DNA of 64,000 nucleotides from Promethearchaeota archaeon (lineage in GTDB: Archaea > Asgardarchaeota > Hermodarchaeia > Hermodarchaeales > Hermodarchaeaceae), in assembly GCA_048938385.1 (NCBI GenBank), contig JBHLMG010000001.1, forward strand, positions 96,001 to 160,000, given 5' to 3'. Position numbers and translations under genes: made by a program. Below are positions 24,739 through 36,255 of the stretch, piece after piece. Each line of letters opens with the position of its first letter. The stretch's first letter is position 1. The notes under the pieces are model-generated. The model was given only the letters and a program-made list of their open reading frames with translations, was not told where the DNA came from and did no database searches.

Positions 24739-24884
24739 GGGCACGTGGCTTAGCCTGATGGAGCGCCGAACTACTACGCATACTGCGTGGTGTGTGTATG
24801 CCTTATATGGTGTCGCTCCGAACATTCAAATGCGAAACCTAGGTAAGCCGGAGGTCGCGGGTTTGAATCCCGCCGTGCCCACCA
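24739..24884 (+). tRNA. tRNA-Ile(UAU) with two BHB introns (24769-24799 at 29/30; 24808-24845 at 37/38) and encoded CCA
   Basis: Acceptor GGGCACG/CGTGCCC + A + CCA; D stem GCTT/GAGC; spliced anticodon arm CCG|GC CT TAT A|A GCCGG; T arm GCGGG TTTGAAT CCCGC; both inserts fold as BHB-type motifs. Confidence 0.88.
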
Positions 24885-33759: not shown

Positions 33760-34143
33760 TCATCGGTTGAGTTTTTTAGCGATTTTTTTTGCAGCACGCT
33801 CCATATTGATAAAGACTAGTCCTAGACCCGCAAGGGAAGCCGTGTTCGTGCTCACCATTAAAACGGAATCTGGACCTGCCGCCACCATGATAACGGCTCC
33901 TGTTTTCCCTTGAGCAAAAACCTGGTGTAATGCTCCTTTCCTTAAATCTGACGCCGCCCGTTCACCAATAGTAAGCAGTGCAGCGCTCATCGCAGCTAGA
34001 AGCGTCTCGTCGAATTCTTCCGGAAGATTCGCTGCAATAGGAAGCCCATCGACTCCAACTACAACAGCAGCCTCAATCTCGTCTACTGATTCTGTAAGAC
34101 TCTCCAGGATTTTCTCAATTTCAGGAGAACTCGGAATCATCAA
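33760..34143 (-). CDS. Roadblock/LC7 (MglB-like) protein
   Basis: IEAAVVVGVDGLPIA, LAAMSAALL.IGER...L..G.L.QV. Confidence 0.92.
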   Translation of the reverse strand: MMIPSSPEIEKILESLTESVDEIEAAVVVGVDGLPIAANLPEEFDETLLAAMSAALLTIGERAASDLRKGALHQVFAQGKTGAVIMVAAGPDSVLMVSTNTASLAGLGLVFINMERAAKKIAKKLNR

Positions 34144-34150
34144 GGTTGGT

Positions 34151-34738
34151 CTAACTCGCTGATGCTTTTGCAGATGTCTTAGGGTACAAATGGTACATCA
34201 AGATATCGCGAGTTACCTGTCGAAACGCGCGTTTAACATTTTCTCCTGTAATAGCACAGGTCGTAAAATTCGGAACATTCCCCAACCCCAACTTTGCCAA
34301 CATGATGGAATTATCCATAGCATTGGACAAATCCTGCTTGTTCAGCATAACAACCAAACTAACCGAATGCCCCAGCTCATCGCTTACAAAGGAACGGAGC
34401 TCAGACATACTTTCGATATTCGCCTCCATCTGATCTGGAGACGAGTCCGCCACGAAAATAATTCCATCTACCCCAGTTAGAATTACCTTTCGTTGTCCTC
34501 GATGTCTGCGTTGACCCGCTACAGTGTATACATCAAAGACTACTTGAGCTGTGGCTTGCATTGGAGTATAGTCAAAAAAAAGAGTCCGACCTGTATGATC
34601 TGCCACCGATGTAAATCCGCCTTTTTCAAGCCCTTCAACATTATCATAAATCCAGCGAAGTGCAGTCGTCTTTCCCGACAGTGATGGTCCCCAGAAGACG
34701 ATTTTGAAATGTATTCGACCTTTCGTGTCTTTCTTCAA
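34151..34738 (-). CDS. MglA-like small GTPase
   Basis: KIVFWGPSLSGKTT, RTLFFDY, YTVAGQ, R..IL.GVDGIIFVADS, NKQDL, CAITG. Confidence 0.9.
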   Translation of the reverse strand: MKKDTKGRIHFKIVFWGPSLSGKTTALRWIYDNVEGLEKGGFTSVADHTGRTLFFDYTPMQATAQVVFDVYTVAGQRRHRGQRKVILTGVDGIIFVADSSPDQMEANIESMSELRSFVSDELGHSVSLVVMLNKQDLSNAMDNSIMLAKLGLGNVPNFTTCAITGENVKRAFRQVTRDILMYHLYPKTSAKASAS

Positions 34739-34784
34739 AGCAGGACGGCTCCTCCTTATTCACGTTGCGCCTATCCCGTCCCCA

Positions 34785-35284
34785 TTAACCCTTCTCTAAT
34801 TCGCCGAGCGCTGCACGCAGCTCTTCTCGCTCTGCGTCAGTCTTACCTGCCGCTACTGCTGGCTTCTCGGCCATGAATTCATCTAATACTTTCGCAAGCT
34901 CCGCCGCGGCTTTCATCATCGTTAAACGAATCATCCCAATGTTTACTTCCTTATCGGTGATTACGCAGAGTACACCTTTTCCTGCACCAGCAGCGAAAAT
35001 CTTGCCATCACCAAACTCCGAAGTCACGATCGTCAGATCGCCTACATCCAAACTTTTTCCCTGCTCTTCGCTAGCGCAGAACACGGCACTTGCAATCGCG
35101 CCTATCCCGTCTACATTTCCGCGTTGTCTAGGTATTAGAGCAACTCAACGGGGTAGTACGAGAATTTTGAAACATGCGCGATAGTAAGACCGGTTCGGTC
35201 AACGAGGATAGTCTTCTTAATTCCTGGTTCGGATTTAATGACATCGGAGAGGATTTCATCAAATTGTCTCACGGTTATTGACAA
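34785..35284 (-). CDS. Roadblock/LC7 protein interrupted by a 29-nt BHB insert (join 35284..35146, 35116..34785; 156 aa)
   Basis: Two ORF-track fragments in different frames join to MSITVRQFDEIL...LVDRTGLTIAHVSKFSYYPVDVDGIGAIASAVFCASEEQGK...; 139+332=471 nt; TTG start after GGTGG. Confidence 0.8.
35117..35145 (-). other. Candidate BHB-type pre-mRNA intron (29 nt)
   Basis: mRNA CCGU-[UG^A]-GUUGCUCUA-AUACC-UAGACAAC-GCGG-[AA^A]: 4-bp helix CCGU/GCGG flanked by two 3-nt bulges; contains an in-frame UAA; excision restores the frame. Confidence 0.78.
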
Positions 35285-35330
35285 GGCTAATCCCTTTCCA
35301 CCGAGCTTGCGGGAGTTACCATTTGAGGGG

Positions 35331-35348
35331 CAGCTTATATCTTTTGTG
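35331..35348 (-). promoter_or_regulatory. Putative BRE/TATA upstream of the intron-containing roadblock gene
   Basis: Minus strand reads CACAAAAGATATAAGCTG, about 50 nt upstream of the TTG. Confidence 0.35.
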
Positions 35349-35411
35349 TGGCAGGAGGTGGATGCCAATTGCGTCGATGATGTTCGAGAGAGAACTGTGA
35401 GAGTTGTCGCA

Positions 35412-35699
35412 TCATCCTCGTAGGACGATGAGGATATAATCTTCTTCAGGCGCAACCATGACTTCTCCCTGTGGAGTTGAGATTGTAAGAAAGTTCATTC
35501 CACCTTCGCCAAGTTCGTCGACTACGCGTTTAGCTTTGCCTACTAGTGATGTAACGAGGGCAGAAATAACCTCAGTTTTCTCTGCGTTTAGGTTGGAGCT
35601 GATTGGTAGGCCTTCCATGTTGGTAATGATAACGCCTCGCACTCCTTCGTGTGCACCGAGGCGTTTGAGTGAGTCTTTCAACGCTTTTCCGCCAATCAT
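35412..35699 (-). CDS. Roadblock/LC7 protein (dynein light chain roadblock-like, 95 aa)
   Basis: [45 protein letters not shown]. Confidence 0.88.
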
Positions 35700-35874
35700 T
35701 GTACTCCACGCTCTCTAGCCACTCACTAGAGGTCCCTCATTGAAGTTATAAAAGTTCCCTCTTGTTCGGGGATAACGAAGACTTTTTGAAAAAATCTATT
35801 GAACGGCGCACAGTTTTTAAACAGGTAGACTAAATCCATGGTAACGCAAAAACTCATGCCATCTTCTTCTGGCG

Positions 35875-36255
35875 TTGGTTGTGGCTTTTATGCTCGGAAA
35901 AAAAGAGGTCGAAGGGGTACTTGCTGAAGTAATGGACACCATTCCAGAACTCGAAGGTATTATTGCTGCTTCAAATACCGGTAAGGTGGTTGCTGGCCAG
36001 ACTCTTCGAGAAATGAATCATGATGCAATTGTTTCAAGTGTAGTTACCCTTCTAAAGGAATCAAAGGCAGTGAGCCAGTCAGTTGATCAGGGTACAGCTC
36101 AAGTAATCTATCTCGAAACCAACAAAGGCTACACTGTAGCAGTAAACACGGCAAAGGCAATAATCGTTGCAATCGCTGGTAAAGACGCTGCCGCCAGCCT
36201 TGGCCTAATAATCCGGAGCCTTCGAGCCTCAGTAGAGAAAATAACAACTAGTTAG
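35875..36255 (+). CDS. Roadblock/LC7 protein (start possibly ATG 35890)
   Basis: LEGIIAASNTGKVVAG, IIVAIAGKDA..SLGLI...LR. Confidence 0.78.
   Translation: MVVAFMLGKKEVEGVLAEVMDTIPELEGIIAASNTGKVVAGQTLREMNHDAIVSSVVTLLKESKAVSQSVDQGTAQVIYLETNKGYTVAVNTAKAIIVAIAGKDAAASLGLIIRSLRASVEKITTS

What the first reader, a model, noticed from the sequence alone, without database searches (positions are those of the whole stretch)
35117..35145. Candidate BHB pre-mRNA intron in a eukaryotic-signature roadblock gene
Seen: the gene reads ...FSYYPV then hits a 29-nt insert with an in-frame UAA, and the rest of the domain resumes in another frame. The insert and flanks fold as a tRNA-endonuclease substrate: central helix CCGU/GCGG, 3-nt bulges UGA and AAA, inner hairpin GUUG(C)UCUA/UAGACAAC, and a relaxed outer helix CUAC/GUAG after one mismatch. 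Cutting after the second nucleotide of each bulge (the EndA rule) gives GUU G|AU GUA GAC = PVDVDGIGAIASA and a continuous 156-aa protein. Established: BHB introns in archaeal protein-coding genes are best documented in cbf5. Inference: mRNA splicing by the tRNA-splicing machinery gates a GTPase-regulatory subunit, and similar introns may hide in Asgard genomes as apparent frameshifts. The non-canonical tRNA intron in this window independently implies a relaxed-specificity EndA.
Basis: partly seen in the sequence, partly recalled or inferred. Interest (0 to 1): 0.92.

Follow-up and report, generated by a model that had tools for sequence, protein, structure and literature searches.

The report
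tRNA-type intron in Asgard roadblock gene
A 29-base insert shaped like the introns that archaea cut out of tRNAs interrupts a highly conserved GTPase-partner (Roadblock/MglB-like) gene in one Hermodarchaeota (Asgard) species only, so its mRNA almost certainly has to be cut and rejoined; published work has confirmed this for only one archaeal gene (cbf5).

Summary
On the minus strand, 29 nt (window 35145-35117) split a Roadblock/LC7 gene into two frames. About 99 orthologous loci across Asgard archaea lack exactly these 29 nt. Removing them gives a 156-aa protein 100% identical to another species' orthologue, despite 73 synonymous DNA differences. [quoted passage not shown] Contigs from four runs in two studies carry the insert, so it is not an assembly error. 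The genome encodes a crenarchaeal-type two-subunit EndA with the broad-specificity loop lysine, and RtcB ligase. Three other genes in this genome (cbf5, dnaG, an EF-2 paralogue) carry 28-41-nt BHB inserts. These are conserved across the genus and show compensatory base-pair changes, so mRNA splicing operates in this lineage. The roadblock intron is a species-specific gain. No RNA data exist for this organism, so splicing is inferred. The "gating" role is speculation. Earlier notes of this scan flagged similar mRNA introns in other Asgard genomes. I classify it as a new member of a known kind.

The parts
35146..35284 (-). Exon 1 of the Roadblock/LC7 gene: TTG start at 35284-35282, ending ...FSYYPV plus the first base (G) of the split Asp codon
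   Evidence: Translations. The TTG start is shared with the G013 orthologue, L004:1360. Pfam Robl_LC7 profile positions 3-32.
35117..35145 (-). 29-nt BHB intron (starts AGUUGC, ends GCGGAA); contains the in-frame UAA at 35137-35135
   Evidence: Absent, to the base, from 18 aligned orthologues and from about 99 loci overall. Present in contigs of 4 runs. Unique in the genome.
34785..35116 (-). Exon 2 (AU GUA GAC GGG... = DVDGIGAIASA...) through the stop codon TAA at 34787-34785
   Evidence: Pfam Robl_LC7 profile positions 39-91. 99-100% protein identity to same-genus orthologues.
35148..35151 (-). Central 4-bp helix, 5' strand (CCGU, exon 1)
   Evidence: MFE fold.
35119..35122 (-). Central 4-bp helix, 3' strand (GCGG, intron)
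   Evidence: MFE fold.
35145..35147 (-). 5' bulge UGA; predicted cut between 35146 and 35145
   Evidence: The cut position matches the gap in the orthologue alignment.
35116..35118 (-). 3' bulge AAA; predicted cut between 35117 and 35116. It is followed by U35115, which is mismatched with C35152.
35123..35144 (-). Inner hairpin h' (GUUG-C-UCUA, loop AUACC, UAGACAAC)
   Evidence: MFE fold.
35153..35163 (-). Outer helix, 5' strand (exon 1: UCUCGU-A-CUAC)
   Evidence: The exon-exon pairing is already present in relatives at 5-10 of 10 pairs.
35105..35114 (-). Outer helix, 3' strand (exon 2: GUAGACGGGA)
34151..34738 (-). Downstream small GTPase (195 aa; Arf, Ras and Gtr1/RagA-like), the likely partner of the Roadblock proteins
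   Evidence: Pfam Arf 5.9e-15, Gtr1_RagA 1.8e-5.
35412..35699 (-). Upstream Roadblock/LC7 gene (95 aa), same strand
   Evidence: Pfam Robl_LC7 2.8e-19.
33760..34143 (-). Roadblock/LC7 gene (127 aa) downstream of the GTPase
   Evidence: Pfam Robl_LC7 1.1e-15.

Best explanation
The 29 nt are an archaeal bulge-helix-bulge (BHB) intron inside the coding sequence of a Roadblock/LC7 (MglB-like) gene of a Hermodarchaeota archaeon. In the pre-mRNA, the end of exon 1 pairs with the 3' end of the intron (the 4-bp helix CCGU/GCGG). The rest of the intron forms a hairpin, and the two exons pair with each other to form the outer helix. This presents two 3-nt bulges to the organism's two-subunit (alpha-beta)2 splicing endonuclease, EndA. 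EndA cuts after the second nucleotide of each bulge, and RtcB joins the exons to GUU G|AU GUA. That restores one frame and a 156-aa protein; the intron is probably released as a small circle. Unspliced mRNA can give only a 49-residue stub. The intron was gained in this species' lineage after it split from the other sampled species of the genus. Shown here: the insert, its exact absence from orthologues, the fold, the enzymes, and conserved sister introns in other mRNAs of the genus. Inferred: cleavage and ligation in vivo.
For: (1) All 18 aligned orthologues lack exactly 35145-35117 and read YYPVDVDG. Of 100 loci with a hit, only the window's own is split. (2) The spliced product is 156/156 identical to the G013 orthologue, against 73 synonymous differences. 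It carries one continuous Robl_LC7 domain, profile positions 3-91. The exons therefore show no decay. (3) The MFE structure is the BHB, with its cut sites at the insert borders. The chance of this is about 2e-4. (4) Contigs of X1, X3, X4 and X5 (a second study; 8 differences in 448 nt) carry the insert without gaps. The three X5 differences shown inside the CDS are all synonymous. (5) The EndA alpha subunit matches A. pernix alpha (3P1Z_B, 6e-46), keeps Tyr/His/Lys, and has a Lys aligned to APE K44. A second paralogue lacks the catalytic His and so looks like a beta subunit. RtcB is present. PMC5829648 states that Asgard archaea have the (alpha-beta)2 type with the L1 loop, which confers cleavage of relaxed BHB motifs. 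(6) Frame-breaking BHB inserts in cbf5, dnaG and an EF-2 paralogue restore the motifs GIINLD|KPPGPTSH, FGQTEGL|LGEDLDL and EEEQRRG|ITIKSA. They are kept in all 9-12 same-genus genomes that could be aligned across the site. For cbf5 and the EF-2 paralogue, compensatory pair changes were counted: 95% and 91% of cells paired, with 6 pairs each changed on both sides.
Against: There is no RNA evidence: no run on record as RNA holds this locus, so neither the junction nor a circular intron has been seen. The intron is known from one species-level lineage only, so its own structure cannot be tested by covariation. The motif is slightly relaxed, with a C.U mismatch at the first outer-helix pair that leaves 4 unpaired nucleotides on the 3' side. 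The fold's z-score against shuffles is only -2.45. No donor copy was found that would explain how the intron arrived. Four of the eight X5 differences were not listed, so the selection signal after the gain rests on three sites.
Confidence: 0.82

Rival explanations
1. A recent 29-nt insertion (for example a hairpin-forming replication error) has inactivated this Roadblock gene. It is a young pseudogene, and its resemblance to a BHB motif is coincidental.
For: Only one species-level lineage has the insert. No RNA data exist. There are three other Roadblock paralogues nearby that might compensate. Hairpin-forming insertions would give the inner helix for free.
Against: The exact-register BHB has a chance of about 2e-4. 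Even with a free hairpin, the central helix alone needs about 1 in 85 tetramers. The exons encode a protein 100% identical to another species' orthologue, with no further lesion. The insert is shared by a strain 1.8% divergent at this locus, and that strain's visible CDS changes are all synonymous. The same genome keeps frame-breaking BHB inserts in essential genes (cbf5, dnaG) across the whole genus, so such inserts are tolerated because they are removed.
Confidence: 0.12
2. The two frames are joined during translation, by a programmed -1/+2 ribosomal frameshift or by translational bypassing of the insert, not by RNA splicing.
For: Two overlapping open frames exist between the UGA at 35148-35146 (exon-2 frame) and the UAA at 35137-35135 (exon-1 frame). 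The crenarchaeal cbf5 introns were at first mistaken for frameshift sites (PMC2738675).
Against: The overlap (CCC GUU GAG UUG CUC UAA) contains no X XXY YYZ slippery heptamer. A frameshift would add about 10 foreign residues inside the invariant YYPVDVDGIG segment. There are no matching take-off and landing codons for a 29-nt hop. The structure present is a BHB, not a pseudoknot downstream of a slip site.
Confidence: 0.03
3. The insert is an assembly or binning artefact and is not present in the organism's DNA.
For: The genome is a metagenome-assembled genome of 51 contigs.
Against: Independent contigs from four runs (three samples of one study plus a second study) span 34872/34900-35487/35500, or 34853-35300, with 0 gaps. 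The insert-less contigs in the same samples differ at 10% or more of positions and belong to other species.
Confidence: 0.01

Closest known systems
cbf5 pre-mRNA intron of Crenarchaeota (Aeropyrum, Sulfolobales, Desulfurococcales; Watanabe 2002; Yokobori 2009, PMC2738675)
   Same: It is a short intron inside a protein-coding sequence, flanked by a (often relaxed) BHB motif. It is cut by a hetero-oligomeric EndA with broad specificity, and it appears in genome annotation as a frameshift. It is also gained and lost among related lineages.
   Different: The host gene differs (Roadblock/MglB-like rather than cbf5), as does the phylum (Asgard, Hermodarchaeota). This intron occurs in a single species-level lineage. 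Splicing of the cbf5 intron has been shown experimentally; splicing of this one has not.
BHB introns of Asgard tRNA genes (PMC11291895; bioRxiv 10.64898/2026.10.13.758758)
   Same: Same motif, same predicted enzymes, and a similar size: ARAGORN-predicted tRNA introns in this genome are mostly 12-56 nt. Asgard lineages are reported to be intron-rich, with repeated independent gains.
   Different: The substrate is an mRNA. Both outer-helix strands are coding sequence, and the cut must preserve the reading frame. No tRNA body is there to help recognition.
Conserved mRNA BHB introns in the same genus (cbf5, dnaG, EF-2 paralogue), found here
   Same: Length of 28-41 nt, frame-breaking, with a 4-bp central helix, two 3-nt bulges and an inner hairpin. 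The cut rule restores a conserved motif.
   Different: Those three are present in every same-genus genome that could be aligned across the site, and two of them show counted covariation. The cbf5 and dnaG introns have almost no outer helix (HBh' type). The roadblock intron is species-specific, and its 10-bp exon-exon helix makes it closer to the canonical form.
Haloferax volcanii HVO_1309 mRNA, an EndA substrate (PMC7714728)
   Same: It is a BHB motif in an mRNA that is processed by the tRNA splicing endonuclease.
   Different: I did not check where in that mRNA the motif lies, or whether it interrupts the coding frame. Haloferax has an alpha'2 EndA with narrow specificity (my own knowledge).
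HAC1/XBP1 unconventional mRNA splicing in eukaryotes (own knowledge)
   Same: Protein-only, non-spliceosomal removal of a short intron from an mRNA, which changes the reading frame. In animals the ligation is done by RtcB.
   Different: The endonuclease there is Ire1, not EndA/TSEN; the recognition elements are paired stem-loops, not a BHB; and the event is stress-regulated.

Membership tests
Archaeal BHB (EndA-dependent) intron in a pre-mRNA | The intervening sequence is absent from orthologues, and its removal restores one open frame and the conserved protein | tested here: met
   Exactly 29 nt are absent from 18 aligned orthologues, and only 1 of 100 loci is split. The spliced protein is 156/156 identical to the G013 orthologue.
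Archaeal BHB (EndA-dependent) intron in a pre-mRNA | [quoted passage not shown] | tested here: met
   The MFE fold gives CCGU/GCGG flanked by the UGA and AAA bulges, and the cuts after the 2nd bulge nucleotide are the insert borders. It is relaxed by one C.U mismatch at the first outer pair. The chance of the register is about 2e-4.
Archaeal BHB (EndA-dependent) intron in a pre-mRNA | The host encodes a splicing endonuclease able to cut BHB motifs outside a tRNA context, and an RNA ligase | tested here: met
   An alpha subunit with Tyr/His/Lys and the loop Lys aligned to APE K44; a beta-like paralogue without the catalytic His; and RtcB at 579 bits. The link between enzyme type and specificity comes from PMC5829648.
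Archaeal BHB (EndA-dependent) intron in a pre-mRNA | The structure is maintained by compensatory changes among species | tested here: inconclusive
   This intron occurs in one lineage only, so it cannot show covariation. Two sister introns in the genus do.
Archaeal BHB (EndA-dependent) intron in a pre-mRNA | A spliced junction or a circular intron is observed in RNA, or cleavage is shown in vitro | not testable with these tools
   No run on record as RNA holds the locus.
Roadblock/LC7 (MglB-like) small-GTPase partner | A single continuous Roadblock/LC7 domain | tested here: met
   In the protein identical to the spliced product, Robl_LC7 covers profile positions 3-91 at 1.7e-10. The best solved relatives are MglB 3T1R/1J3W and LAMTOR2.
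Roadblock/LC7 (MglB-like) small-GTPase partner | Genomic association with a small GTPase | tested here: met
   An Arf/Ras/RagA-like GTPase starts 47 nt downstream on the same strand, and three more Roadblock genes flank the pair. GAP or GEF activity was not tested.
Programmed ribosomal frameshift site | A slippery heptamer in the overlap of the two frames, with a downstream stimulator | tested here: not met
   The overlap CCC GUU GAG UUG CUC UAA has no X XXY YYZ motif.

The most novel reading that the evidence does not exclude
The roadblock intron is a snapshot of ongoing, de novo gain of endonuclease-type introns in Asgard protein-coding genes. On this reading, introns arise or land wherever the coding sequence already offers exon-exon complementarity (a proto-splice site; relatives already have 5-10 of the 10 outer pairs). 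mRNA splicing by the tRNA machinery would then be a routine layer of gene expression in this lineage, and its efficiency could set the dosage of one subunit of a Roadblock/small-GTPase module.
Probability: 0.35. Interest if true: 0.9.

Novelty: new member of a known kind. Interest (0 to 1): 0.76.

Why it matters
In the papers I could search, splicing of a coding sequence by the tRNA splicing endonuclease is confirmed for one archaeal gene only, cbf5, in Crenarchaeota (PMC2738675, PMC7714728). I found no paper describing such introns in Asgard protein-coding genes. Here an Asgard genus carries such introns in at least four protein genes, and one of them, the roadblock intron, is present in one species and absent from all others sampled. 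That makes intron gain in mRNAs of the closest prokaryotic relatives of eukaryotes directly testable: one junction to look for, a 66-nt substrate, and two enzyme genes to express. It also matters for annotation. These genes are called as frameshifted fragments or pseudogenes, so Asgard gene content, including the eukaryote-like GTPase/Roadblock modules, is undercounted.

Tried and rejected
1. ARAGORN found no tRNA in the window, while Rfam found one. I did not resolve its introns, so I do not use it as evidence on EndA specificity.
2. My genome-wide scan for BHB motifs that merge two ORFs timed out once. When it ran, it did not discriminate: 1803 hits against about 1790 with the cut sites shifted. 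A stricter filter still returned mostly gene junctions. I rejected it as a census.
3. No RNA holder is listed for the locus.
4. The 99-aa C-terminal fragment is not on record as a called protein anywhere.
5. The metagenome scan for the exact intron with a free loop gave 0 hits. A degenerate exon pattern with a 29-nt gap gave 7 hits, all one unrelated sequence family; one record is labelled human gut.
6. Donor search: no second copy in the genome (at most 14-nt matches) and none in 18 genomes of the family at up to 3 mismatches.
7. The four mRNA introns share an 'NNA / AAN' bulge signature, but the tRNA introns of the genome do not. I dropped it as a signature.
8. Exon co-adaptation: the outer helix scores 10/10 here, but relatives already have 5-10 of 10 pairs, so there is no evidence that the exons adapted to the intron.
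9. Assembly artefact and frameshift or bypass readings were considered and rejected (see the rival explanations).
10. The leads on CoA-transferase, fwdB and SRP RNA introns from earlier notes were not checked.

Full report
**What is in the sequence.** The finding lies on the minus strand. One frame reads ...TGLTIAHVSKFSYYPV, then ELL and TAA (35137-35135). The rest of the domain, (N)VDGIGAIASAVFCASEE..., continues in another frame to TAA at 34787-34785. Pfam places the upstream piece at Robl_LC7 profile positions 3-32 and the downstream piece at 39-91, so one Roadblock/LC7 domain is cut in two.

- a 4-bp helix CCGU/GCGG;
- a 3-nt bulge UGA on the 5' strand and AAA on the 3' strand;
- an inner hairpin;
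- after one C.U mismatch, a 10-bp helix made of the two exons.

The z-score against shuffles is modest (-2.45). The relevant chance is different, though: that a 29-mer placed at this site forms the central helix and at least 4 inner pairs in the one register that excises exactly itself. That happens for 1.9e-4 of random genomic 29-mers and 7.5e-5 of shuffles of the insert.

**Comparison with orthologues.**
- Organism: titles of near-identical loci name Hermodarchaeota and other Asgard archaea.
- A search of 40 relatives found an uninterrupted open frame of about 155-217 aa in the relatives and a 119-aa frame only in the window's genome.
- In a DNA alignment of 18 orthologues, every one lacks exactly the 29 nt 35145-35117 and reads GTNG|AYGT = YYPVDVDG.
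- Among 100 loci with a hit, including 80 from a scan of one genome per species, only the window's own is split.
- The spliced CDS is 468 nt. Its product is 156/156 identical to the orthologue of another species (G013, L004:1360-1827), although the two genes differ at 73 synonymous positions.
- That protein has one continuous Robl_LC7 domain (profile 3-91). Its closest solved relatives are MglB, the partner of the small GTPase MglA, and LAMTOR2.
- An Arf/Ras/RagA-like GTPase follows on the same strand, and three more Roadblock genes flank the pair.

**Is the insert real DNA?** Contigs assembled independently from four public runs span it without a gap. They come from X1 (possibly the source), X3 and X4 (other samples of the same study; 0 and 1 differences), and X5 (another study; 8 differences in 448 nt). 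Insert-less contigs in the same samples differ at 10% or more of positions and belong to related species. Of the X5 differences listed, three lie in the CDS and all are synonymous. The fourth lies just upstream of the TTG start. So the interrupted allele is stable, predates some strain divergence, and shows no decay. Four X5 differences were not listed, so this last point is weak.

**Can the organism splice it?**
- The genome has two EndA paralogues.
- One (186 aa) matches the catalytic alpha subunit of Aeropyrum pernix (3P1Z_B, 6e-46). It keeps the Tyr/His/Lys triad and aligns without a gap through the specific loop, placing a Lys opposite APE K44.
- The other (204 aa) has Thr where the catalytic His should be, and it also matches structural beta subunits.
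- This is the (alpha-beta)2 type with the L1 loop. PMC5829648 reports that type for Asgard archaea and links it to cleavage of relaxed motifs. PMC2738675 notes that this enzyme type recognises such motifs outside a tRNA context.
- RtcB is present.
- About half of the tRNA genes that ARAGORN finds have introns, mostly of 12-56 nt.

**Is mRNA splicing used in this lineage at all?** Earlier first-reader notes on the same genome pointed to other interrupted genes, and I checked three of them:
- cbf5 (C4:12651-12691, 41 nt): cutting by the same rule restores GIINLD|KPPGPTSHEV.
- dnaG (C23:180501-180528, 28 nt): restores FGQTEGL|LGEDLDL.
- EF-2 paralogue (C23:40400-40430, 31 nt): restores EEEQRRG|ITIKSANISL.

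Unlike the roadblock intron, these are present at the same site in every same-genus genome that could be aligned across it (9-12 genomes). On the cbf5 alignment, 95% of cells pair and 6 pairs change on both sides. On the EF-2 alignment, 91% pair and 6 pairs change on both sides; one of these is an A-U to G-C swap between an exon base and an intron base of the central helix. Versions of the structure slid by 1-3 columns pair at only 24-62%. Frame-breaking inserts kept in core genes across a genus, with compensatory changes in the BHB, can hardly be explained unless they are removed from the RNA. This is the strongest indirect support for reading the roadblock insert the same way.

**Best explanation and rivals.**
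- The insert is a BHB intron that EndA removes from the mRNA and RtcB rejoins. It was gained in this species' lineage (confidence about 0.8).
- A young pseudogene that mimics a BHB by chance is the main rival (about 0.12). Against it stand the register probability, the intact exons, the shared insert in a diverged strain, and the sister introns.
- A frameshift or translational hop is unlikely. There is no slippery site, and about 10 foreign residues would be added inside an invariant segment.
- An assembly artefact is excluded.
- What is missing is RNA: no run on record as RNA holds the locus.
- The origin of the intron is unknown. There is no second copy in the genome, none in 18 genomes of the family, and none in the metagenome collection.
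- The outer helix is largely dictated by the codons for SYYPV and VDG and already exists in relatives (5-10 of 10 pairs). This fits a pre-existing proto-splice site rather than later adaptation of the exons.

**Known or new?** In the papers I could search, the only coding-sequence BHB intron with confirmed splicing is cbf5 of Crenarchaeota; others were only predicted (PMC2738675; PMC7714728 adds one Haloferax mRNA that EndA processes). Papers on Asgard introns deal with tRNA genes (PMC11291895; bioRxiv 10.64898/2026.10.13.758758). No paper found describes such introns in Asgard protein-coding genes.

Within this scan, similar mRNA introns were already flagged in other Asgard genomes. Two of those notes report RNA-derived contigs that lack the intron; I did not check them. 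I classify the finding as a new member of a known kind. The mechanism is the cbf5 one. The new elements are the host gene, the phylum and the presence/absence pattern, which dates a gain.

Noticed in passing
G000 contig C4:12651-12691 (+), outside the window: The cbf5 gene is split by a 41-nt BHB insert (HBh' type, no outer helix) inside TruB motif I. Removing it restores GIINLD|KPPGPTSHEV. The insert is present in all 12 same-genus relatives, with compensatory changes (95% of cells paired, 6 pairs changed on both sides).
   Followed up: yes
G000 contig C23:180501-180528 (-), which is window coordinate 84501-84528 and so beyond the window end: The dnaG gene is split by a 28-nt BHB insert. Removing it restores FGQTEGL|LGEDLDL. 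The insert is present in all 12 same-genus relatives, and stem changes that look compensatory are visible by eye (for example CTTCATATC/GATGTGAAG against CTTTATATC/GATATAAAG).
   Followed up: partly
G000 contig C23:40400-40430 (-), before the window start: An EF-2 paralogue is split by a 31-nt BHB insert. Removing it restores EEEQRRG|ITIKSANISL. The central helix covaries between exon and intron bases across the genus (GGGG/CCCC, GAGG/CCUC, GAGG/CCUU).
   Followed up: yes
window 24739-24881 (+): Rfam finds a tRNA (39.6 bits) with about 80 nt in place of the 11-nt anticodon region of the model, and ARAGORN misses it entirely. It probably has more than one intron. I did not resolve the introns or the anticodon.
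   Followed up: partly
window 33760-36255: This is a cluster of four Roadblock/LC7 genes (127, 156 spliced, 95 and 126 aa) around one Arf/Ras/RagA-like GTPase. Weak Pfam hits to MAPKK1_Int (LAMTOR3) and LAMTOR5 hint at a Ragulator-like module.
   Followed up: partly
table, relatives G003, G004, G006, G008, G010, G019, G024, G026, G030, G040 and others: Many weak matches to paralogous Roadblock genes in relatives are flagged with one stop (mostly TAA) inside the match. This could simply be alignments running past the gene end, or it could mean in-frame inserts. I did not look.
   Followed up: no
window 35105-35163 and the orthologous sites in L002-L020: The 10-bp exon-exon helix that flanks the intron is largely forced by the codons for S-Y-Y-P-V and V-D-G. 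It is already present at 5-10 of 10 pairs in intron-less relatives, so it is a possible proto-splice site.
   Followed up: yes
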